From the NCBI GenBank assembly GCA_007376295.1, contig VMGB01000002.1:2843-66842 (forward strand): a DNA stretch of 64,000 nt, given 5' to 3'. This document shows positions 17,599 to 55,717 of this stretch, piece by piece. A model generated the notes under the pieces. That model had not been told where the DNA came from and ran no database searches. It saw only the letters and a list, made by a program, of their open reading frames with translations. Both the position numbers and the translations under genes were made by a program. This DNA is from Parcubacteria group bacterium Gr01-1014_13 (GTDB lineage: Bacteria > Patescibacteriota > Patescibacteriia > Magasanikbacterales > GWA2-37-8). Each line of letters begins with the position of its first letter. Position 1 is the stretch's first letter.

Positions 17599-18168
17599 TC
17601 AGAGTCGCCGCCACAAACGGTAAGTGAAGAATAGTGGCGGAATACTGAACAGAAAGAAGCCAAGAGCGTAGAAGATATTGTTGGGAAAGACACTGATGCC
17701 GCTGGGTACTGTTACCTTGTACCCGTCATTCCCGTGATCCAGAAGCGTTTCACGCAACTTGAGTAAGATATTACTCCGCTCCAACTGCGTGGTTTCCGGT
17801 TTCACCTTCTCCAACTCATCGAGAGAAGATTTCAGGTTATTATACCAGAATCCAACATCATCATCTGGAGTATTGTACAGAATGGAAGTGTAGCCTTCCA
17901 TCATCTTGTTCTCTTCGAGATACGAGACAACAATTCTCATTTCCTTCGCAGCCATCTCTACGGTATTTGCATCAGCCGCCCGCTTAATATGATTGCCACA
18001 GTCACGGTCGAACAATACCATCTTAACGACACGCGCCCCGCTCAAAACAAGTAGTGGCAAAAGGACAAGTGTTCCCTTAAACACCCATTTCCAAAGCTTA
18101 TTTCTTGTCTTGGCCTGTTCTTTCTTGATCTCTTCCAGGATGCTTTGTGTCTTTTTACTGTAACTCAT
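17599..18168 (-). CDS. hypothetical membrane-anchored protein (N- and C-terminal hydrophobic segments)
   Basis: RBS GGAGGA 4 nt before the second ATG of ATGATG. An intrinsic terminator (GACCC...GGGTC plus T-tract) follows at about 17540..17585. GC content is somewhat elevated. Confidence 0.5.
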   Translation of the reverse strand: MSYSKKTQSILEEIKKEQAKTRNKLWKWVFKGTLVLLPLLVLSGARVVKMVLFDRDCGNHIKRAADANTVEMAAKEMRIVVSYLEENKMMEGYTSILYNTPDDDVGFWYNNLKSSLDELEKVKPETTQLERSNILLKLRETLLDHGNDGYKVTVPSGISVFPNNIFYALGFFLFSIPPLFFTYRLWRRL

Positions 18169-18267
18169 CATTCCTCCGGTTCGTAGTTGCAGATTCACCT
18201 AAAATTTACTCTAAAAAGACCCTCGTGTCAACAAGATGCTGGGTAAATTTATTACTACTGAAAAGTG

Positions 18268-18339
18268 AGGTCGCGGTGGGAATTGCACCCACGCATAGAG
18301 GTTTTGCAAACCACTGCCTTACTGCTTGGCTACGCGACC
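18268..18339 (-). tRNA. tRNA-Cys (anticodon GCA), with one U-U mismatch in the anticodon stem
   Basis: Acceptor GGTCGCG/CGCGACC, T arm GTGGG-TGCAATT-CCCAC, anticodon loop TTGCAAA, discriminator U73 (a Cys identity element). Confidence 0.7.
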
Positions 18340-22980: not shown

Positions 22981-23017
22981 GGCCGTCATGATAAAATCGA
23001 GACGGCTTTTTTATTTC
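22981..23017 (+). terminator. intrinsic terminator, copy 2 of the duplicated element
   Basis: GGCCGTCATGATAAAATCGAGACGGCTTTTTTATTTC. Confidence 0.6.
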
Positions 23018-23027
23018 TCATCCACCA

Positions 23028-23056
23028 TTGACAATTGCCTAGTTTTATACTATACT
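23028..23056 (+). promoter_or_regulatory. promoter TTGACA-17-TATACT
   Basis: Precedes RBS GGAG and the ATG at 23090. Confidence 0.55.
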
Positions 23057-23089
23057 CCGACCGAACAACCGAAACAAAACAGGAGAACC

Positions 23090-23524
23090 ATGTCTCTACT
23101 ATGTGGCGTCTGCAAGTATGATATTCGTGAAGGCTATGGACTTATCTATGGCCTACAGCGTAGTAAAGATGGCGATATCATCCTTCCCGACATGAAAAAT
23201 GATATCGTGCCGCCAAATTGTGCGGTGTGCGACGGGTGTTTTGGGAGGGTACCGGAGGGTATCGTTGGGCCAGTAACTTCTGCCCAAGATCTGACAAAGA
23301 TGGATGACCCCATCTATGTCTATGCAAAAGCAAGTAGTGGCACTGGCATGTTTGGTGCCAGGGAATGGAGTAGTATCCAGGCCGACGACAACAATCTTCG
23401 TCCTGTACAGGCGGCGTGGCTCAAACAAAATTTTGCTTTCCTTGCTAAAATTATTGCCAACATGGCAAAGAACAAGGAAGAACCGATGGAAATTCGGGTT
23501 GGAGTTGTTACCACAAAAGCCTAA
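23090..23524 (+). CDS. hypothetical protein with an N-terminal CxxC...CxxC zinc-ribbon
   Basis: Internal Met start with RBS AGGAGAA. CGVCKYD ... CAVCDGC. Confidence 0.5.
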   Translation: MSLLCGVCKYDIREGYGLIYGLQRSKDGDIILPDMKNDIVPPNCAVCDGCFGRVPEGIVGPVTSAQDLTKMDDPIYVYAKASSGTGMFGAREWSSIQADDNNLRPVQAAWLKQNFAFLAKIIANMAKNKEEPMEIRVGVVTTKA

Positions 23525-40399: not shown

Positions 40400-40428
40400 T
40401 TGACAAAACACCTGTTTCATCATATATT
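40400..40428 (+). promoter_or_regulatory. promoter TTGACA-17-TATATT for the 40445 gene
   Basis: Followed by RBS GGAGG and an ATG. Confidence 0.55.
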
Positions 40429-40444
40429 CTGTTTGGAGGTTACA

Positions 40445-40921
40445 ATGAACGTACCCCGGATAAAATCAGTCGACCAAGCAACTATTGGGTTAGTCAGTCT
40501 CATCAAAGAGGCAGTCGGCCCAAAAAACATCTACAATATCCACGAGAATTTCTTTTCCAAGCAGTTCAGGAAAAAGGGTATCCTAATGGGTGGGAAGCCA
40601 CTCATTGCGCCATTTTTGGATGGTGAGACTGGCTATGGAGCCCTGAATCGTCTGGCTGCTCATTATACAGGTAAAAATTTCGAATTCTCAAATACATTTA
40701 GCTTGGCTCGGTACATGATTGATAATTCGGCTGAAGTTAGTAAATTTGCCGGAGTTTTGGCTATGAGCGGGGACTCCCTGTGGGTATCGCCGGATAGCCA
40801 TGCTTACTACGCTCCATATGCTTTTGCGAGTGGCGATAGGCGTCGAAGCTTTAGCTTTTATGAGCTTGGTGCTAAGTTCAGTTCTAGGCAAGGGATACTC
40901 CTTTTTGGTCCTAGCGCCTAA
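40445..40921 (+). CDS. hypothetical protein, paralog 1 (..SGDSLWVSPDSHAYYAPYA..)
   Basis: Internal Met with RBS GGAGG. Shares an S-x-D-S-x-W-x-x-P-D block with 41063..41662. Confidence 0.5.
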   Translation: MNVPRIKSVDQATIGLVSLIKEAVGPKNIYNIHENFFSKQFRKKGILMGGKPLIAPFLDGETGYGALNRLAAHYTGKNFEFSNTFSLARYMIDNSAEVSKFAGVLAMSGDSLWVSPDSHAYYAPYAFASGDRRRSFSFYELGAKFSSRQGILLFGPSA

Positions 40922-40972: not shown

Positions 40973-41001
40973 TTGACAAAACCTTTTATCCACTATATAT
41001 T
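40973..41001 (+). promoter_or_regulatory. promoter TTGACA-17-TATATT containing a DnaA-box-like TTTTATCCAC in its spacer
   Basis: Immediately after the terminator. Drives 41063..41662. Confidence 0.5.
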
Positions 41002-41062
41002 TGTATTTACAATTGACGCTAAAAACATCCAGTTTTGGGATAGTGCGTCTAGGAGGAAAAAC

Positions 41063-41662
41063 GTGGAGAATACAGAGGATAAGAATAATCTCAATCGTGG
41101 GTTTTTGGTTTCCTATGATCAGTCAATGGACATTCAAGAGTTGATGAAACTATCCCTGAATGTGCTAAATAGTAGAAACATCAACTATGATATTACCCAA
41201 GAGCATTTTGACAAACTCTCGGGAGTTGGTATTCGGACAGTGAGTTTGCGGGTAGAGCCGTACCTTTTGATTGAAACAAGCGCACAGGCTGTCCTGCGAC
41301 TAGTAGCCGCGGGTCACACTTTGGCAAACCTGAAGGATCTGGCGGCCTTTATTCGTAGTTATCCCGAGGAAGCAAAAAAGTGGTGGTGGATATTTGCGCT
41401 CAGTGAGGACTCTTGGTGGGCATACCCTGATAATACTAGAGTGGTATATGCCAATATGCAGGGTTGGCTTGGTTACACTCATTGGGGTTTACGCGACCAG
41501 GTCAGTTCGTCAAAATCTGATCTAAACGGAATTCTTGTGTTGGCGGAATCCGACGAGGTATTGGAAGCAAAACGAATTCTTGCTTCAGCTCCCGTGCTGA
41601 AGAAGGGAGACAAAGTAGATCTAGATCAGCTGCAGAAAGATATTAGTAAGTTGGGAACTTAA
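41063..41662 (+). CDS. hypothetical protein, paralog 2 (..SEDSWWAYPDNTRVVYANMQG..), GTG start
   Basis: RBS AGGAGG 6 nt before an in-frame GTG. Trp-rich. Confidence 0.45.
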   Translation: MENTEDKNNLNRGFLVSYDQSMDIQELMKLSLNVLNSRNINYDITQEHFDKLSGVGIRTVSLRVEPYLLIETSAQAVLRLVAAGHTLANLKDLAAFIRSYPEEAKKWWWIFALSEDSWWAYPDNTRVVYANMQGWLGYTHWGLRDQVSSSKSDLNGILVLAESDEVLEAKRILASAPVLKKGDKVDLDQLQKDISKLGT

Positions 41663-43274: not shown

Positions 43275-44255
43275 ATGCTCATGGCCGAAGACGTTACAGC
43301 ATTTGTGGAAAGAGTTGGATTGACCGATGCGCTAGAAATTTTGGGCGAGGATGTTTGGAAATACACCAAATTTTCTTTTGAACAGTGGGCTGAAGAGCAC
43401 AACCCTTGTATGTATGATCAGGCGCTAAAGGCAAAGGTCTTGGCCAAAATGGTGGAGATCGCTTCTGTTACTGAGCATTGGCTCAAGATTTGGCATCTGG
43501 CACCGGCTGATAGTGTGGAGCACAGGTTGGTCATTGAAAAAATAAAAGAGAGGCTCAATTTGTTAACCACCTTTGAAGAAGTTCAGAAGTGGCAGCCGTT
43601 TGATTTTCGCCTGGATTTTCAGGGAAAGAACAAAAAGCTAAACACGCTTTGGCTGCAGAGATTAGCAGAGGTGGCGATAGGCTTTGAACAGTGGAAAGCT
43701 GTTTTTTACGAAGCAAATAATTTGCCGACAAAAAATAGCGACGTGTCTGATTTGGCTTTGGCAAATATGGTGGGGAATGCCACAAACGGCAGACGCTGGC
43801 TGGAAGTTTATCATGCTGCTCAAGACGGTAGCTTTGCGCAAAAGAAAGCGCTTGATTATTTCTTCAATCAAGCCAAGACGTATGACGATTGGTTTGATGT
43901 TTGGTATAGAGCCAGAAATAAAGATGAAAATATGGCAAAGCTGGCGCTGGCCAAAGCAGTTCGTAGCGCCGAAACTTTTTCACAGTGGCATCAGTTATTC
44001 TCGCACCACAAAGACAACCAAACACTTCGTGATCTTTGTCTAGAAAAACTTGTGCCTCGGGCCAAAACCTTTTACGATTGGCTATGTGTTTATCAGGCAA
44101 GCGAAGGCCAGGCAAAGCTGGACGCTTTGGAGCAATTGTTGACCAAACCAGAAAATGTAGGTGACTGGCTACATATTTGGCATCATACCCCCGAAGACAG
44201 CAAAGCCAAAGCCAGGGCATTGCACTGGCTGCAAAGTTTCGTCATTAGAGATTAG
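43275..44255 (+). CDS. Trp-rich internal-repeat protein (WLxIWHxxPxDS repeats), hypothetical
   Basis: At least four repeats of about 40 aa (WLKIWHLAPADS ... WLHIWHHTPEDS). Confidence 0.5.
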   Translation: MLMAEDVTAFVERVGLTDALEILGEDVWKYTKFSFEQWAEEHNPCMYDQALKAKVLAKMVEIASVTEHWLKIWHLAPADSVEHRLVIEKIKERLNLLTTFEEVQKWQPFDFRLDFQGKNKKLNTLWLQRLAEVAIGFEQWKAVFYEANNLPTKNSDVSDLALANMVGNATNGRRWLEVYHAAQDGSFAQKKALDYFFNQAKTYDDWFDVWYRARNKDENMAKLALAKAVRSAETFSQWHQLFSHHKDNQTLRDLCLEKLVPRAKTFYDWLCVYQASEGQAKLDALEQLLTKPENVGDWLHIWHHTPEDSKAKARALHWLQSFVIRD

Positions 44256-51990: not shown

Positions 51991-52788
51991 TTATTTTAAC
52001 AAAAAGTAAATCAGCACCAATACTCCAAGAACAATTCGGTAATATCCAAACGGAACGAAGTTTTTTGTTTGAATATATTTCATGAACATTTTGATTACTG
52101 CCAGTGCAACCAAAAAAGAAGTTACAAATCCGGTGAGTAGGATAACAGCCTCTGAACCAGTCATATTTAATCCATTTTTGAGCAAGGAATATATGGAAGC
52201 GGCCGCGATAGTAGGGATAGCCAAGAAAAAAGAAAATTCTGCCGCTAGTACTCGCGAAGCACCAAGCAACATCGCACCGATAATGGTGGCTGCCGAGCGG
52301 GAAGTGCCTGGTATCATGGCCAGAGTTTGAATTAAGCCGATAGCAAAAGCTGTTTTGTAGCTTAATTCGGCTACGGAATTAATTTTATGATCCACCTTTC
52401 TTCTTTCCAGTAAAATTAAAGCTATACCGCCGATGATAAGGGTAATGGCAACTGTGATTGGATTAAAAAATTTGGCTTCTATTGTTTTGGCCAGAAAAAA
52501 TCCAATTACCAGTGCTGGTAGAACAGCGACCAGAGTTTTTCTCCAAAGCGCAAACACTTCTTTTTTATTTGCATATCGGCTAAGTGGGCAAATACGAGAG
52601 TTGAAGTACAATGCTACAGCTACAATTGCTCCAAGCTGAATCACAATATCAAACATTTGGGTAAAATGCTTGTCAAACTTCAGCCACTCGTTTACTATTA
52701 TCAAGTGTCCGGTAGAGGAAATTGGTAGAAATTCGGTAATTCCTTCTACAGCGCCCAGGATTATGGCTTTAAGCAAGTCAAAAATCAT
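51991..52788 (-). CDS. uppP: undecaprenyl-diphosphate phosphatase
   Basis: ILGAVEGITEFLPISSTGHL signature. 8 TM. The start is taken at the internal Met so it does not overlap the divergent glycosylase gene (the track ORF extends to 52872). Confidence 0.85.
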   Translation of the reverse strand: MIFDLLKAIILGAVEGITEFLPISSTGHLIIVNEWLKFDKHFTQMFDIVIQLGAIVAVALYFNSRICPLSRYANKKEVFALWRKTLVAVLPALVIGFFLAKTIEAKFFNPITVAITLIIGGIALILLERRKVDHKINSVAELSYKTAFAIGLIQTLAMIPGTSRSAATIIGAMLLGASRVLAAEFSFFLAIPTIAAASIYSLLKNGLNMTGSEAVILLTGFVTSFLVALAVIKMFMKYIQTKNFVPFGYYRIVLGVLVLIYFLLK

Positions 52789-52833
52789 AAAAAAGTTAAA
52801 TAACAGAATTATTATATCCCAAAGCCAGACTTT

Positions 52834-53460
52834 ATGCCATTGAAAGTTAATTTTAAAAAATCCATAGATCATTTAAAGTCAGTCGATCCTATTTTAGCAA
52901 AGTTGTTCGATTCTTGCTCGCCAGTTGTTTTGCGTCCGCATACTAATTATTTTCAATCGCTCACAGAAGCGATTATTAGTCAGCAATTGTCTGACAAAGC
53001 AGCTACAACCATTGTAAATCGGTTTAAAGCTTTGTTTCCCGGCGTAGATTTCCCATCGCCAAAACAAGTTTTACGCAAAAAAGATAGTGATTTGCGTAGT
53101 GTTGGTGTGTCTGGGGCTAAAGCTTCGTATATTAAAAATTTAGCCACCGCTATGGAAGATAAAACGGTTCATTTTGTAGATATATCCAAAATGACAGATG
53201 AAGAAATTATTGAAATGTTGGTGAAAGTAAAAGGGATTGGACGTTGGACTGCGGAGATGTTTCTAATTTTTTCTTTGGGCAGATTGGATGTATTTTCTTT
53301 TGGAGATTTAGGATTACGTAATGCGATAAAAAAATTATATTCTCTGCGCCAAGATCCGTCGCCGAAACAAATGCAAAAAACGTCTATCTGTTGGCAACCA
53401 TATCGCACTTGCGCTTCACTGTATTTGTGGGCGAGTTTGAATAATAGACAAAAGCCTTAA
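52834..53460 (+). CDS. HhH-GPD superfamily DNA glycosylase (AlkA/3-methyladenine glycosylase II-like)
   Basis: Helix-hairpin-helix with GIGRWTAEMFLIFSLGR and the catalytic Asp region. Confidence 0.75.
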   Translation: MPLKVNFKKSIDHLKSVDPILAKLFDSCSPVVLRPHTNYFQSLTEAIISQQLSDKAATTIVNRFKALFPGVDFPSPKQVLRKKDSDLRSVGVSGAKASYIKNLATAMEDKTVHFVDISKMTDEEIIEMLVKVKGIGRWTAEMFLIFSLGRLDVFSFGDLGLRNAIKKLYSLRQDPSPKQMQKTSICWQPYRTCASLYLWASLNNRQKP

Positions 53461-53491
53461 TTTTCGATAGAATTCGCGTATTCGTATATTA

Positions 53492-53580
53492 TGGAGAGGT
53501 GTCTGAGTGGTCGAAAGTGCCGCTCTCGAAAAGCGGTAGGGTTCATAGCCCTCGTGGGTTCGACTCCCACCCTCTCCGCC
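53492..53580 (+). tRNA. tRNA-Ser (anticodon CGA), CCA encoded
   Basis: Acceptor GGAGAGG/CCTCTCC, anticodon loop CTCGAAA, long variable arm, T arm GTGGG-TTCGACT-CCCAC, G73 then CCA. Confidence 0.85.
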
Positions 53581-53676
53581 AAGTTTTGAATTCCAGCAGA
53601 CTTGACGAAATAACCAGTGCATGGCATGCTATGGTCTCATTCTCCCCACAAAAAACAACAGAAAGGATTGTGTAAA

Positions 53677-53976
53677 ATGAAGACCCCTGAAGTGTCATTG
53701 GATGTTGCTTTTAGCCAGCTTAGCAAACGTGAACGACAAGTGCTCGTCGCGCTCGCGCAGGGTTATTCTAACCGTGAGGTTGCGACGGAGCTTGGGGTTA
53801 ACCCAAAAACTGTCGATTCGCATCGAAGCCAGGTACGCAAGAAGCTCGGTCTACGCAACAACAGTGATTTTGTTCGCTATGCCATCAAGAACGGATTGAT
53901 GGATGTCAACGGCAAGGAGTCTCCGACTCCACCGCCGGTTGAAAGATTTGATCCGCAGGCCGAACAGATGTTGTAG
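53677..53976 (+). CDS. LuxR/GerE-family HTH solo regulator, GC-rich (about 55%) foreign-looking gene
   Basis: LSKRERQVLVALAQGYSNREVATELGVNPKTVDSHRSQVRKKLGL. RBS AGGA before the internal Met. A terminator follows (GCACCTC-UCCG-GAGGUGC plus U-run, 53993..54019). Confidence 0.7.
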   Translation: MKTPEVSLDVAFSQLSKRERQVLVALAQGYSNREVATELGVNPKTVDSHRSQVRKKLGLRNNSDFVRYAIKNGLMDVNGKESPTPPPVERFDPQAEQML

Positions 53977-54089
53977 ATATTTGTACCAGTACGCACCTCT
54001 CCGGAGGTGCGTTTTCTCTCCAGTTTGCTTTTTTTAAACTATCGTGTATAATACTAACCAGATAAATTAATTTATTTAATTCAAAAGTT

Positions 54090-54344
54090 ATGCCAAAAGC
54101 AAACTCTGCTTTTATGAAGCCGTTGAATGTCAGCGCCGAACTCGCCGCTGTCGTTGGTAAAGGTCCTATGCCACGCTCAGAAGTGGTCAAAAAACTCTGG
54201 GTTTATATCAAAAGCAAGAATCTACAGGACCCAGCCAAGAAGCGTAATATTCACGCCGACGCAGCTTTAAAAGCAGTATTTGGCGGTAAAGAAACAGTGG
54301 ACATGTTTGAAATGACAAAACTCGTTTCCAAACACCTTTCCTAA
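54090..54344 (+). CDS. SWIB/MDM2 domain protein
   Basis: LSAELAAVVGKGPMPRSEVVKKLWVYIKSKNLQDPAKKRNIHADAALKAVFG matches the SWIB fold consensus. Confidence 0.8.
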   Translation: MPKANSAFMKPLNVSAELAAVVGKGPMPRSEVVKKLWVYIKSKNLQDPAKKRNIHADAALKAVFGGKETVDMFEMTKLVSKHLS

Positions 54345-54394
54345 TTATAAAAAACAAAAAATCCTCCAACTTATGGGGGATTTTTTTGTAGCGG

Positions 54395-55717
54395 TTAATT
54401 TCCCAAATCTTTTATATCCTGTTCATATTTGGCAGTCAGGGTCAAAACATTATCGCCATAAAAACGATATTTGGTATTGGTTCCTCCGGAGAAGTAACGC
54501 ATAGCTGCTTTCCATTGTCCGTCTTTAGTATTATTAGCTCCATTATTTTTTAAAAGCAGACCAGCAGCCATAAACGCATCGCGAATATCCCAAGGGTCAG
54601 CTGGACTTTTTCCGGTTAAAGCGCTGACTTTGTCTTTATATCCAATCCAAGTGGAAGGAATAAATTGAGCCGGTCCCATGGCTCCGCCCCAGCCTAGCTG
54701 ACTGCCATTTTTATTTTTCATGGGGCAAGAAACCGGAGTTATATCCGGATCACGGCCTAACTCTTCGGTAATTTTTTTAAATGGTTCCTGGTCACGAGCG
54801 GGCTTCATAATAACCCTCCAGCCTTTTTCGGGTGGATCGCCCGGCCGGTTGCAAGTGCCGACATTTTTCCCCAAGTTTGATTCTTGAGTGAGGATAGCCA
54901 GAAGAAATGCCGCTGGCACGCCGGTTTGGCTATCGGTTGCTTGAGCAATCGTAACGGCTTGGCCAAAAGTAATTTGAGTACCGACTCCCAATAATTCGTA
55001 AATACGGCTTCTGATTTCGGCCGCTTGTTTTTTACTATCCTTTAAAAGATTTTGGAAAGTGGTTTCCAGCCCTTGAGTCTGCTTCAGTAGTTGCGTTTGT
55101 TCGTCTAATTTGCCGACAAGAGAATTTTGTTGAATTTTAGCAATGCTTAAAAGTTCGCGAGTATCATCCTGTTGCTCTTCATAGGTTATTTGTTGGGAAT
55201 TTAATTGTTGTTCCGCTATTCTGGACTCTTGCACTAGGGCGCCAATAGAAGTGGATAATTTTTGGTAATTAGCTAATTCGGTAAATGCTTCATTTAAACC
55301 GCCATCAACCAAAAGCTTAAGCAAGAACAGTTCTTGATCTTTTTGATTTAAAAGTCGTAGCAATTTGGATAAATCTATTTTTAAACGCGCGATTTTGGCT
55401 TTGTTGGTCTCTATAGCTTTGACTGTGGTGGAAATTTTTTTATCTAAATCACCCAATTTAATATTGGTAGATTTAATCTGCAGACGCAGACGCTCTTGTT
55501 CGTTTTTGAGTTGTTTAATTTTATTTGCCAGAGTTTTTTTCTCGCCTTTAGTGGTGTTTAATTGTTGTTCTAGGGCCGTGATTTGGGTTTGAATGACTTG
55601 TAATTGTTGTTCCAGCTCTAGTCGGGCGGCTTCATCTGGTGCGGCGGCTGTTAAAATCGGGAAAACTAAAAAAATAACTAGGAGGGCGCCAATATATTTT
55701 TGCCAGAGTTTTTTCAT
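54395..55717 (-). CDS. coiled-coil + lytic transglycosylase (SLT domain) membrane-anchored cell-wall enzyme
   Basis: N-terminal TM, about 250 aa of heptad repeats. C-terminal ...LTQESNLG...GPAQFIPSTW is the SLT family 1 signature. Confidence 0.7.
   Translation of the reverse strand: MKKLWQKYIGALLVIFLVFPILTAAAPDEAARLELEQQLQVIQTQITALEQQLNTTKGEKKTLANKIKQLKNEQERLRLQIKSTNIKLGDLDKKISTTVKAIETNKAKIARLKIDLSKLLRLLNQKDQELFLLKLLVDGGLNEAFTELANYQKLSTSIGALVQESRIAEQQLNSQQITYEEQQDDTRELLSIAKIQQNSLVGKLDEQTQLLKQTQGLETTFQNLLKDSKKQAAEIRSRIYELLGVGTQITFGQAVTIAQATDSQTGVPAAFLLAILTQESNLGKNVGTCNRPGDPPEKGWRVIMKPARDQEPFKKITEELGRDPDITPVSCPMKNKNGSQLGWGGAMGPAQFIPSTWIGYKDKVSALTGKSPADPWDIRDAFMAAGLLLKNNGANNTKDGQWKAAMRYFSGGTNTKYRFYGDNVLTLTAKYEQDIKDLGN

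What the first reader, a model, noticed from the sequence alone, without database searches (positions are those of the whole stretch)
53492..54344. tRNA-Ser(CGA)-adjacent islet: GC-rich LuxR-solo regulator and a SWIB/MDM2-domain protein
Directly after a tRNA-Ser with encoded CCA comes a 99-aa LuxR/GerE-type HTH protein with no receiver or autoinducer domain. Its gene is about 55% GC with GC3-biased codons, has its own terminator, and is followed by a SWIB/MDM2-domain protein. In bacteria SWIB is mostly a eukaryote-like chromatin-associated module. Composition and tRNA adjacency suggest horizontal acquisition. Functionally it could be a small regulator-plus-DNA-architectural pair.
Basis: partly seen in the sequence, partly recalled or inferred. 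Interest (0 to 1): 0.55.

Follow-up and report, generated by a model that had tools for sequence, protein, structure and literature searches.

The report
GerE-type regulator in variable tRNA-SWIB slot
A small stand-alone DNA-binding regulator gene of foreign (GC-rich) composition sits in a gene-swapping gap between a serine tRNA and a very highly conserved SWIB gene in an ultra-small groundwater bacterium. The SWIB gene is a fixed core gene and not part of an imported island.

Summary
All the described features exist. There is a tRNA-Ser(CGA) with encoded CCA (53493-53581). There is a 99-aa GerE/LuxR_C-only HTH gene (53677-53976; 51% GC and GC3 55% in a 40% GC genome) with its own terminator. 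There is an 84-aa SWIB gene (54090-54344).

The two genes are not one islet. SWIB is a hyper-conserved gene (77-96% aa identity) found across Patescibacteria. It has host-like codons and its own promoter, and it forms the fixed right flank.

The interval between tRNA-Ser(CGA) and SWIB varies among relatives of this Parcubacteria MAG (Gr01-1014_13):
- One relative has 3.6 kb of extra cargo plus a GerE gene 54-58% identical.
- Another keeps the same promoter and terminator but holds a GC-rich trypsin-like lipoprotein gene instead.
- A third has tRNA and SWIB only 86 bp apart.

No integrase and no att repeat were found. The GerE gene is compositionally foreign in both carriers (p about 2e-4). Every other family member with recoverable DNA lies in a 60-69% GC locus, three of these lineages linked to Patescibacteria. 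The best reading is lateral acquisition before the two carriers split.

The likely function is a dimeric HTH regulator controlled by its abundance. Nothing supports a functional pairing with SWIB. The finding is ordinary to moderately interesting.

The parts
51991..52872 (-). Left conserved flank: undecaprenyl-diphosphatase (BacA/UppP).
   Evidence: Pfam BacA 8.6e-82. It is 87% aa identical and syntenic in relative L082.
52834..53460 (+). Left conserved flank: HhH-GPD DNA glycosylase, directly upstream of the tRNA.
   Evidence: Pfam HhH-GPD 9e-20. It is 82% identical and syntenic in L082. A 42%-identical copy also precedes a tRNA-Ser and SWIB in the distant locus L018.
53493..53581 (+). tRNA-Ser(CGA); CCA encoded at 53579-53581. 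Left edge of the variable slot.
   Evidence: ARAGORN and Rfam. It is 91-98% identical to the tRNA-Ser(CGA) of L082, L179 and L181. In all of those the sequence diverges right after the discriminator (CTT, CAA, CAG instead of CCA), and the other four tRNAs of the window do not encode CCA.
53582..53601 (+). 20-nt linker with no clear counterpart in any relative.
   Evidence: Alignment A3. Conserved sequence starts at TTGAC (53602).
53602..53635 (+). Conserved promoter-like block of the cassette: TTGACG (53602-53607) followed by TGcTATGGT, an extended -10-like motif (53627-53635).
   Evidence: Conserved in L082 and L179. The 13-mer TGGCATGCTATGG is single copy in the window, and among the 186 loci held at the time it occurs only at this slot in L001, L082-84 and L179. 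Promoter function is inferred. The spacing of TTGACG to TATGGT is 22 nt, so only the extended -10 reading fits sigma-70 rules.
53636..53676 (+). 5' leader with the Shine-Dalgarno-like AAAGGA (53662-53667), 9 nt before the ATG.
   Evidence: Read from the sequence. It is conserved in L082 (aGGAAGGA) but not in L179, where a different ORF follows.
53677..53976 (+). Stand-alone GerE/LuxR_C-type HTH protein, 99 aa. This is the variable cargo of the slot.
   Evidence: Pfam GerE 2e-18. AF2 plus Foldseek match LiaR/VraR/FixJ/GerE DNA-binding domains. GC 51.3% and GC3 55%, with z = 3.7. The ortholog in L082 is 54-58% identical. NCBI TSC84279.1 is the same gene annotated at 116 aa.
53991..54017 (+). Intrinsic terminator of the cassette: 9-bp stem ACGCACCTC/GAGGTGCGT plus a T-run.
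   Evidence: Terminator scan. It is conserved in L082 and in L179 behind a different ORF, and is single copy in the window.
54019..54052 (+). SWIB promoter-like region: TTGCTT (54025-54030), 16 nt, TATAAT (54047-54052). This is where homology with the 'empty-slot' relative resumes.
   Evidence: Read from the sequence. It is conserved in L082, L179 and L181. Function is inferred.
54090..54344 (+). Stand-alone SWIB/MDM2-domain protein, 84 aa. Conserved right flank, not cargo.
   Evidence: Pfam SWIB 2.7e-31. It is 92-96% aa identical in L082, L179 and L181, and 77-88% identical in 80 GTDB Patescibacteria species. Codon usage is host-like.
54356..54386 (.). Hairpin terminator shared by SWIB (+) and the convergent SLT-domain gene (54395-55717, -).
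   Evidence: inverted repeat I3. The SLT gene is 84% identical in L179.

Best explanation
The window comes from the MAG 'Parcubacteria group bacterium Gr01-1014_13' (Patescibacteria/CPR).

What the locus is. The short interval between tRNA-Ser(CGA) and the SWIB gene is a variable slot in this lineage. In the window it holds one monocistronic cassette: promoter, SD, 99-aa ORF, terminator. The ORF encodes a stand-alone GerE/LuxR_C-type helix-turn-helix protein.

Origin of the GerE gene. It belongs to a small family of roughly 100-aa 'MKTPxVxLD...KTVDxHR...IDVDG' proteins. Every other member with recoverable DNA lies in a 60-69% GC locus. Three of these lineages are tied to Patescibacteria by naming or gene content, and one locus is an IMG/VR viral contig. 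In the 40% GC genome the gene still carries a GC-rich codon signature. It most likely entered by lateral transfer from a higher-GC lineage, before the window lineage split from relative L082, which has it at the same place. It is only partly ameliorated and its protein evolves 2.5-17 times faster than its neighbours.

How the slot changed. Entry and later changes (extra cargo in L082, ORF replaced by a protease in L179, nothing in L181) appear to have occurred by illegitimate or homologous recombination. A tRNA-targeting integrase is not indicated.

Likely mechanism (inferred from the family, not shown). The protein dimerises through its fourth helix and binds a dyad DNA site with its conserved third helix. 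It has no receiver or ligand domain, so it would be controlled by its own expression level or by a partner protein.

SWIB. It is an independent gene conserved across Patescibacteria, with its own promoter, and is simply the right-hand border of the slot.
For: Identity.
- Pfam GerE and SWIB hits.
- Nearest solved structures are NarL/FixJ/LiaR DNA-binding domains and GerE.
- An AF2 model of four helices (17-27, 32-39, 43-57, 62-71) has TM 0.92 to the LiaR DNA-binding domain.

Foreign composition.
- z = 3.7 for GC and GC3 against 40 ORFs. Only 0.5% of in-frame 300-nt segments reach GC3 of at least 0.55.
- The amino-acid-controlled simulation gives p about 2e-4 in the window and again in L082 (GerE GC3 0.50 against 0.34 expected).

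Family distribution.
- Only about 25 clusters of short solos were found among 5.8 billion proteins. The next-nearest hits are NarL/UvrY-type regulators of Myxococcota.
- Solos with recoverable DNA lie in 60-69% GC loci and have host-like GC3 there.
- Neighbour proteins of those loci cluster at 90% or more with proteins named 'Patescibacteria group bacterium'.
- In an NJ tree the window copy, P0002, P0134 and the L082 copy form one clade.

Variable slot.
- L082: BacA, HhH-GPD, tRNA-Ser(CGA), 3.6 kb of cargo, GerE, SWIB.
- L179: tRNA-Ser(CGA), 3 genes, the same promoter, a 233-aa Trypsin_2 lipoprotein (58% GC, GC3 64%), the same terminator, SWIB, then SLT and the large protein as in the window.
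- L181-L183 and L185, four independent assemblies: tRNA-Ser(CGA), 86 bp, SWIB.

Time of entry.
- Synonymous codon differences at identical residues, window against L082, are 0.48 +/- 0.07 for GerE and 0.39-0.40 for BacA and HhH-GPD. This is compatible with the same divergence time.
- dN is 0.35 for GerE against 0.02-0.14 for neighbours.

SWIB as core gene and flank.
Against: - The donor is not identified, and no transfer vector, integrase or att site was found.
- The viral collection holds only 44-50% identical relatives and no copy of the leader.
- GC-richness persists in two lineages whose flanking genes differ by dS of about 0.8-1.0. That is long for incomplete amelioration. A simple F81 calculation of my own needs an ancestral GC3 of only about 0.64-0.71, so the numbers fit, but they do not exclude selection or biased gene conversion maintaining GC.
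- Polarity of the slot changes is unresolved. SWIB-region identities group L179 with L181, while the tRNA groups the window with L179.
- Codon statistics rest on 64 kb of the genome, not the whole genome.
- DNA binding, dimerisation and targets are untested.
- P0002 and P0134, the closest relatives at 69%, have no recoverable DNA or context.
Confidence: 0.6

Rival explanations
1. GerE plus SWIB form a two-gene genomic islet that integrated site-specifically into the 3' end of tRNA-Ser(CGA). The two products work together as a regulator and a DNA-architectural protein.
For: The locus is adjacent to a tRNA, and CCA is encoded only in this genome's copy. The GerE gene is GC-rich. GerE and SWIB are adjacent in two genomes.
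Against: - SWIB has host-like codons. It is 77-96% identical across Patescibacteria.
- SWIB stays in place next to the tRNA when the cassette is absent (L181) or holds a protease (L179).
- 0 of 80 GTDB SWIB loci have a GerE homolog.
- A terminator and a separate conserved promoter lie between the two genes.
- There is no repeat of the tRNA 3' end and no integrase among the ORFs of at least 150 aa from about 12 kb upstream to 10 kb downstream.
- Other GerE solos sit in unrelated contexts, namely the Mur ligase cluster and the NusG-L11 cluster.
Confidence: 0.04
2. The GerE gene is an old, vertically inherited gene of this lineage. Its GC-richness is intrinsic to the slot or the gene, through GC-biased gene conversion at a recombination hot spot or through selection on codons or mRNA. 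Its absence in L179 and L181 reflects loss or replacement.
For: - It occupies the same position, with the same promoter and terminator, in L082.
- Synonymous divergence at conserved residues is not significantly above the flanks.
- Purifying selection is evident (dN well below dS).
- The other ORF found in the same slot (the L179 protease) is also GC-rich, as a local GC-raising process would predict.
- SWIB-region identities place the empty-slot relative L181 beside L179, inside the group of four tRNA-linked loci, which would make 'empty' a deletion.
Against: - The flanking intergenic DNA and SWIB are not GC-enriched.
- The family is otherwise found in high-GC genomes, where it has native composition.
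- The other high-GC3 ORFs of the window are orphans without family hits rather than housekeeping genes, so high GC3 here goes with accessory genes.
- It is absent from all 80 other Patescibacteria SWIB loci.
Confidence: 0.24
3. The conserved promoter and terminator form a dedicated expression slot into which foreign ORFs are swapped ORF-precisely. This would be an integrase-less cassette platform next to a tRNA. The GerE gene and the L179 protease are two captured cargos.
For: Homology between the window and L179 stops just after the -10-like motif and resumes around the stop codon and terminator, with unrelated GC-rich ORFs in between. The promoter and terminator motifs co-occur only at this slot among the loci fetched (186 when the promoter motif was searched, 190 for the terminator).
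Against: - Only one replacement event has been seen, and a single illegitimate recombination would explain it.
- No recombinase and no attC-like sites were found.
- The motifs are single copy in the window.
- Extra cargo in L082 and L179 lies outside the promoter/terminator pair.
Confidence: 0.12

Closest known systems
GerE of Bacillus subtilis (PDB 1FSE), the archetype of autonomous LuxR_C-type effector-domain regulators
   Same: Both are a single GerE/LuxR_C domain with no sensor domain. Both have a four-helix HTH fold (Foldseek TM 0.79, 36% identity; phmmer 2e-7). By analogy the window protein would be a dimeric DNA binder regulated by its abundance.
   Different: Sequence identity is only about 36%. 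The window protein has extra 11-residue N-terminal and roughly 25-residue Pro-rich C-terminal tails that are modelled with low confidence. It comes from a different phylum and has no link to sporulation. Its targets are unknown.
DNA-binding domains of NarL/FixJ-family response regulators (LiaR 4WT0/4WUL, VraR, FixJ, UvrY/GacA)
   Same: These give the best sequence and structure matches. The recognition-helix motif KTVDxHR is shared.
   Different: There is no receiver domain (PF00072), so no phosphorylation control. All NCBIfam equivalog scores are far below their cutoffs.
PedR (Synechocystis Ssl0564; NCBIfam NF052366), a small stand-alone LuxR-type regulator
   Same: It is a short HTH-only LuxR-type protein. 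The alignment covers residues 14-75.
   Different: The score is 43.8 bits against a cutoff of 120, so the window protein is not a member. Whether it has the redox-controlled cysteines known for PedR was not examined.
'LuxR solos' in the quorum-sensing sense (orphan LuxR-type receptors such as SdiA, QscR)
   Same: They share the C-terminal GerE-type HTH.
   Different: LuxR solos are defined by an N-terminal autoinducer-binding domain without a cognate LuxI. This protein has no such domain (99 aa), so the name does not apply.
tRNA-linked genomic islands and 'replacement' flexible genomic islands
   Same: The position is tRNA-adjacent, the cargo is compositionally deviant, and the content differs at the same site in close relatives.
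   Different: There is no integrase and no direct repeat of the tRNA 3' end. The scale is tiny at about 0.44 kb. The right flank is a core gene, not an att site.
Bacterial SWIB proteins (chlamydial stand-alone SWIB and TopA-SWIB fusion), plant plastid SWIB-4 and yeast UAF30
   Same: All carry a PF02201 domain. The best solved match is UAF30 (7e-13). NCBIfam hits fall on the SWIB tails of topoisomerase I and III fusions.
   Different: Here the protein is an 84-aa domain-only protein, widespread and 77-96% conserved in Patescibacteria. It has no topoisomerase fusion and no H1-like DNA-binding tail.

Membership tests
GerE / LuxR_C-like HTH (Pfam PF00196) | Profile score above the curated threshold. 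| tested here: met
   66.2 bits against a cutoff of 23.5, E = 2e-18, covering profile positions 2-57 of 57.
GerE / LuxR_C-like HTH (Pfam PF00196) | Four-helix bundle with an HTH formed by helices 2-3. | tested here: met
   The AF2 model has helices 17-27, 32-39, 43-57 and 62-71 with pLDDT of at least 86 across residues 11-80. Foldseek gives TM 0.92 to the LiaR DNA-binding domain and 0.79 to GerE.
GerE / LuxR_C-like HTH (Pfam PF00196) | Sequence-specific DNA binding as a dimer. | not testable with these tools
   This needs EMSA, DAP-seq or similar. No conserved operator-like dyad could be identified. The palindrome GCATGGCATGC in the leader is present in L179, which has no GerE, and lost in L082, which has GerE.
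LuxR solo (quorum-sensing orphan receptor) | N-terminal autoinducer-binding domain (PF03472). | tested here: not met
   The protein is 99 aa and only HTH-type (GerE, sigma-70 region 4 and similar) families are hit, all on the same stretch.
NarL/FixJ response regulators | N-terminal receiver domain (PF00072). | tested here: not met
   No receiver hit. All NCBIfam response-regulator equivalogs fall far below their cutoffs and align only to their C-terminal 60 residues.
PedR (NF052366) | Equivalog score of at least 120 bits. | tested here: not met
   43.8 bits.
tRNA-integrated genomic island | Integrase or recombinase gene in or next to the island. | tested here: not met
   Pfam annotation of the ORFs of at least 150 aa from about 41.8 kb to 63.9 kb shows none. 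None lies in the slot of L082 or L179 either.
tRNA-integrated genomic island | Direct repeat of the tRNA 3' end at the far border (attL/attR). | tested here: not met
   The 25-mer and 15-mer of the tRNA 3' end, with up to 3 mismatches, find no second copy other than the other tRNA-Ser. The repeat search of 53440-54460 finds none. The same holds in L082 and L179. Only a 6-nt CTCTCC plus AGTTT micro-repeat occurs at 53572 and 54016, which is at chance level.
tRNA-integrated genomic island | Deviant composition of the cargo. | tested here: met
   This is met for the GerE gene only. It is not met for SWIB (p = 0.10).
tRNA-integrated genomic island | Presence or absence polymorphism at the same site in relatives. 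| tested here: met
   Four states were found: the window, L082, L179, and L181-183 with L185.
SWIB/MDM2 (Pfam PF02201) | Profile score above the curated threshold over the full domain. | tested here: met
   107.6 bits against a cutoff of 25, covering profile positions 1-74 of 74. The best PDB match is the UAF30 SWIB domain at 7e-13.
Integron-like gene cassette | Integron integrase plus attC recombination sites flanking the ORF. | tested here: not met
   No integrase was found. The conserved elements flanking the ORF read as a promoter and an intrinsic terminator, not as attC with a GTTRRRY core.

The most novel reading that the evidence does not exclude
The conserved promoter and terminator between tRNA-Ser(CGA) and SWIB form a fixed 'expression slot' in a Parcubacteria lineage. 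Unrelated GC-rich foreign ORFs (a GerE-type regulator in the window and L082, a secreted trypsin-like protease in L179) are exchanged there ORF-precisely, without any integrase. This would be a minimal cassette-capture platform in genomes that have almost no mobile-element machinery.
Probability: 0.12. Interest if true: 0.55.

Novelty: new member of a known kind. Interest (0 to 1): 0.3.

Why it matters
CPR/Patescibacteria have tiny genomes, few recognisable regulators and few mobile elements, so how they gain genes and control transcription is poorly known.

This locus gives a clean small-scale example of gene gain, replacement and loss at one site among close relatives. It also defines a small family of HTH-only GerE-type regulators whose members with recoverable context lie mostly in Patescibacteria-linked loci, in several conserved genomic positions.

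It also corrects a tempting over-reading. The 'eukaryote-like' SWIB gene is a widespread, extraordinarily conserved Patescibacteria gene and not an import. That conservation may bear on published inferences that SWIB genes are frequently transferred between Patescibacteria (PMC12455944).

Tried and rejected
1. Att site. Searches for the tRNA 3' end (25-mer, 20-mer and 15-mer with up to 3 mismatches) in the window, L082 and L179, and a general repeat search, found nothing.

2. The 12-nt inverted repeat 53581-53592 / 54078-54089 appears to bracket the GerE segment (I4). I rejected it as terminal repeats. Its right arm lies in the conserved SWIB 5' leader, which is also present in the empty-slot relative L181, and ten such pairs occur in 1 kb.

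3. Deeper coalescence or allele replacement of GerE. Nei-Gojobori pS of 0.74 against 0.33-0.56 for the flanks suggested it. Synonymous differences restricted to identical residues are 0.48 +/- 0.07 against 0.39-0.40. The excess is not significant and was dropped as evidence.

4. High expression as the cause of high GC3. The other high-GC3 ORFs of the window have no family hits and are not housekeeping genes, so this gained no support.

5. The first terminator pattern had the wrong loop length and missed even the known site. It was repeated correctly.

6. The metagenome scan with the GerE alignment returned mostly response-regulator DNA-binding domains and no further GerE-SWIB loci.

7. Viral links. 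There are only four distant hits at 44-50% and no copy of the leader.

8. PADLOC hits are generic HTH and protease similarities (CARF-HTH, CasR), with no defence-system context.

9. Rfam found nothing but tRNAs.

10. An autoregulatory operator was sought in the leader. The only palindrome does not co-vary with presence of GerE.
Full report
**1. What is there**

The window is a 39.7% GC genome segment. Exact protein look-ups identify it as a 159.6-kb contig of 'Parcubacteria group bacterium Gr01-1014_13' (TSC84242, TSC84279, TSC84281).

- ARAGORN and Rfam place a tRNA-Ser(CGA) at 53493-53581, with CCA encoded at 53579-53581.
- After 95 nt comes a 99-aa ORF (53677-53976). Its only domain is GerE/LuxR_C (Pfam 2e-18).
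- It is preceded by AAAGGA 9 nt upstream of the ATG.
- It is followed by a 9-bp-stem hairpin and T-run at 53991-54017.
- After a further AT-rich spacer with TTGCTT-16-TATAAT (54025-54052) comes an 84-aa SWIB/MDM2 ORF (54090-54344; Pfam 2.7e-31), with its own terminator (54356-54386).

An AlphaFold2 model of the 99-aa protein (pLDDT 82.6) has four helices covering residues 17-71. It superposes on the DNA-binding domains of LiaR, VraR and FixJ and on GerE (TM 0.79-0.92). Residues 1-11 and 76-99 are poorly ordered. Sequence searches of the PDB agree.

The gene is 51.3% GC, and it is GC3 that is 55%. It is a GerE-like stand-alone HTH, not a 'LuxR solo' in the quorum-sensing sense.

**2. Composition**

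Forty long ORFs of the window have mean GC 40.1% (sd 3.0) and mean GC3 36.4% (sd 5.0). Against these the GerE gene scores z = 3.7 on both measures. Only 0.5% of in-frame 300-nt segments reach its GC3, and all of those come from two orphan ORFs.

I resampled synonymous codons for its own amino-acid sequence from the window's codon table. The expected GC3 is 0.364 +/- 0.046 against 0.545 observed (p about 2e-4). SWIB is not deviant (0.452 against 0.385, p = 0.10).

**3. SWIB is a core gene, not cargo**

The SWIB protein has thousands of homologs; 7999 of the 8000 candidates scored matched. The best are 85-94% identical and are named from Parcubacteria, Levybacteria, Liptonbacteria and others.

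In GTDB species representatives, the 80 best loci carry copies 77-88% identical across many Patescibacteria lineages. Their neighbouring genes, where they are homologous at all, are 35-42% identical to those of the window. None of the 80 loci has a GerE homolog.

A published Hainich-aquifer study lists SWIB genes among those 'almost exclusively transferred between Patescibacteria' (PMC12455944). My data cannot separate extreme conservation from transfer. Either way SWIB is ubiquitous there.

**4. Close relatives show a variable slot**

Looking up contigs that encode GerE or SWIB relatives gave three related locus types.

- **L082** (GCA_964360135.1, 38% GC). To the window, BacA is 87% identical, HhH-GPD 82% and SWIB 96%. 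The order is BacA, HhH-GPD, tRNA-Ser(CGA), eight host-like genes (3.6 kb), a GerE gene, then SWIB. The GerE leader, terminator and SWIB promoter are clearly homologous to the window.
- **L179** (GCA_964541405.1). The SLT gene is 84% identical and the 868-aa protein 74%. The order is tRNA-Ser(CGA), three genes, the same TTGACGAAAG...TGGCATGCTATGG block, a 233-aa Trypsin_2 lipoprotein-like ORF (58% GC, GC3 64%) in place of GerE, the same GCACCTC...GAGGTGC terminator, SWIB, two genes, SLT, and the large protein.
- **L181-L183 and L185**, four independent Hainich H51 assemblies at about 40% GC, with L184 a truncated fifth contig that shows the tRNA 3' end followed by SWIB. The order is aquaporin, tRNA-Ser(CGA), 86 bp, SWIB. 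There is no promoter block, ORF or terminator.

The promoter 13-mer and the terminator motif are single copy in the window. Among the loci fetched (186 when the promoter motif was searched, 190 for the terminator) they occur only at this slot.

In all four genomes the sequence diverges immediately after the tRNA discriminator base. The encoded CCA is peculiar to the window and is not a habit of this genome's tRNAs.

Homology with the empty-slot relative resumes at about 54019. The window-specific segment is therefore about 53579-54018, roughly 0.44 kb.

Polarity is unresolved. The SWIB region pairs the window with L082 and L179 with L181, while the tRNA pairs the window with L179.

**5. No integration machinery**

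There is no second copy of the tRNA 3' end in the window, L082 or L179. No integrase, recombinase or transposase lies among the annotated ORFs from about 41.8 kb to 63.9 kb, or in the slots of the relatives. No close viral relative was found.

**6. The GerE family**

A full HMMER search of 1.84 billion representatives, and a profile search of 5.8 billion proteins, find only about 25 clusters of similar 80-126-aa solos. They share an N-terminal MKTP(D/E)VxLD, the KTVDxHR recognition helix, and IDVDG after helix 4. The next-nearest proteins are NarL/UvrY-type response regulators of Myxococcota.

Where DNA was available, the family falls into three contexts:
- the window and L082 type, upstream of SWIB;
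- a MurD-(DUF2914)-GerE-Mur ligase-DivIC context in 66-68% GC genomes;
- a SecE-NusG-...-GerE x3-L11 context in a 61% GC genome.

In the high-GC genomes the gene has native composition. Proteins at least 90% identical to their neighbours are named 'Patescibacteria group bacterium'.

In an NJ tree the window copy, P0002, P0134 and the L082 copy form a clade. It sits beside the high-GC Mur-cluster clade and the 61% GC solo P0255.

The L082 copy is also GC-enriched for its genome (GC3 0.50 against 0.34 expected, p about 2e-4).

**7. Timing and rate**

Window against L082, GerE is 54-58% identical in protein, with dN 0.35. The flanking genes have dN 0.02-0.14.

Nei-Gojobori pS looked saturated at 0.74. 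Synonymous differences at identical residues are 0.48 +/- 0.07 against 0.39-0.40 for BacA and HhH-GPD. I therefore do not claim a deeper coalescence.

The simplest reading is one acquisition before the two lineages split, followed by partial amelioration and fast protein evolution under purifying selection. Taking the flanks' dS as the yardstick, dN/dS is about 0.35-0.43. A back-of-envelope F81 calculation of my own needs an ancestral GC3 of about 0.64-0.71, which a high-GC donor could supply.

**8. Function**

Shown: the fold and the family.

Inferred from established knowledge of GerE and of NarL-family DNA-binding domains:
- dimerisation through helix 4;
- recognition of a dyad site by helix 3;
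- no phospho-control or ligand control, so activity would be set by expression level or by a partner.

No operator could be proposed. No other GerE-domain ORF exists in the window.

Three observations argue against a dedicated GerE-SWIB pair: the terminator and separate promoter between the genes, SWIB's independence from GerE in all other genomes, and the protease occupying the same slot in L179.

**9. Verdict**

The features are real, and the 'foreign, tRNA-adjacent' idea holds for the GerE gene only. SWIB is the conserved border. The locus is a small flexible-genome hot spot without integrase or att sites.

It is a new member of known kinds: a GerE-type autonomous regulator and a replacement-type flexible islet. 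The ORF-precise swap between a shared promoter and terminator is the one unusual detail worth following up.

Noticed in passing
window 54090-54344; loci L002-L081, L186-L190: The 84-aa SWIB protein is 77-88% identical across 80 Patescibacteria species, while its neighbours fall to 35-42%. A 94%-identical copy sits in a different context (DAO/Rieske, SWIB, DEAD helicase). This is either extreme purifying selection or frequent intra-phylum transfer, as PMC12455944 suggests. Copies also appear in MAGs labelled Udaeobacter, Omnitrophica, Bdellovibrionales and Bacteroidales.
   Followed up: partly
loci L007, L030, L035, L055, L063, L064, L077 (and L018): In 7 of 80 SWIB loci from distant Patescibacteria, a tRNA-Ser gene (GGA, CGA or TGA) lies within 800 bp of SWIB. 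By my rough estimate that is about ten times what tRNA density predicts. L018 even keeps the order HhH-GPD, tRNA-Ser, 1.5 kb, SWIB. The tRNA-Ser/SWIB linkage may be ancient.
   Followed up: partly
L179 4149-4850: The gene caller annotated a 180-aa ORF on the minus strand. The real gene is a 233-aa plus-strand Trypsin_2 protein with a lipobox-like N-terminus (LIAFAC). It is 58% GC in a 45% GC locus and is driven by the same promoter block as the window's GerE gene.
   Followed up: yes
window 53631-53675: A 14-codon upstream ORF (MVSFSPQKTTERIV) starts inside the conserved TGCTATGG motif and stops 1 nt before the GerE ATG. In L082 the same ATG is in frame with GerE, which is why it is annotated there as 117 aa. 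NCBI annotates the window gene as 116 aa. I cannot tell whether this ATG is ever transcribed.
   Followed up: partly
window 17599-18198 (-), next to tRNA-Cys 18267-18339 (-): This is a second tRNA-adjacent ORF with foreign-looking codons (GC3 0.54, the lowest codon-adaptation value in the window). It has no Pfam, NCBIfam or PADLOC hit. Other GC3-rich orphan ORFs lie at 22988-23524, 40400-40921, 40973-41662 and 43275-44255.
   Followed up: partly
window 54022-54032 and 54095-54105: An 11-nt perfect inverted repeat joins the -35 region of the SWIB promoter with SWIB codons 2-5, and 9 of 11 positions are kept in L082. By count it is at chance level for AT-rich DNA. It would matter only for read-through transcripts.
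   Followed up: no
L094 923-2182: A 61% GC genome, probably Patescibacteria, carries three consecutive GerE-domain solo genes (93, 171 and 102 aa) between NusG and ribosomal protein L11.
   Followed up: no
L082 2308-5853: The extra 3.6 kb after the tRNA in L082 has native composition, no integrase and no att repeat. It carries DUF2200, DUF1801 x2, DUF8412, a hypothetical gene, an XRE-type HTH and DUF2975 x2. The closest GerE relative, P0002, is preceded by an OmdA-family gene.
   Followed up: partly
L181 2934-2966: A partial duplicate of the tRNA-Ser 5' half is followed by a run of N. It is probably a scaffolding artefact. The empty-slot arrangement is confirmed by three other independent assemblies (L182, L183, L185).
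   Followed up: partly
window 54090 upstream: SWIB has no Shine-Dalgarno sequence in the window, L082, L179 or L181 (the leader is AT-rich), whereas the GerE gene has one. Synonymous divergence of SWIB is also about half that of its neighbours (0.23 against 0.39-0.40). That is consistent with strong codon or mRNA constraints or with recent homogenisation.
   Followed up: no
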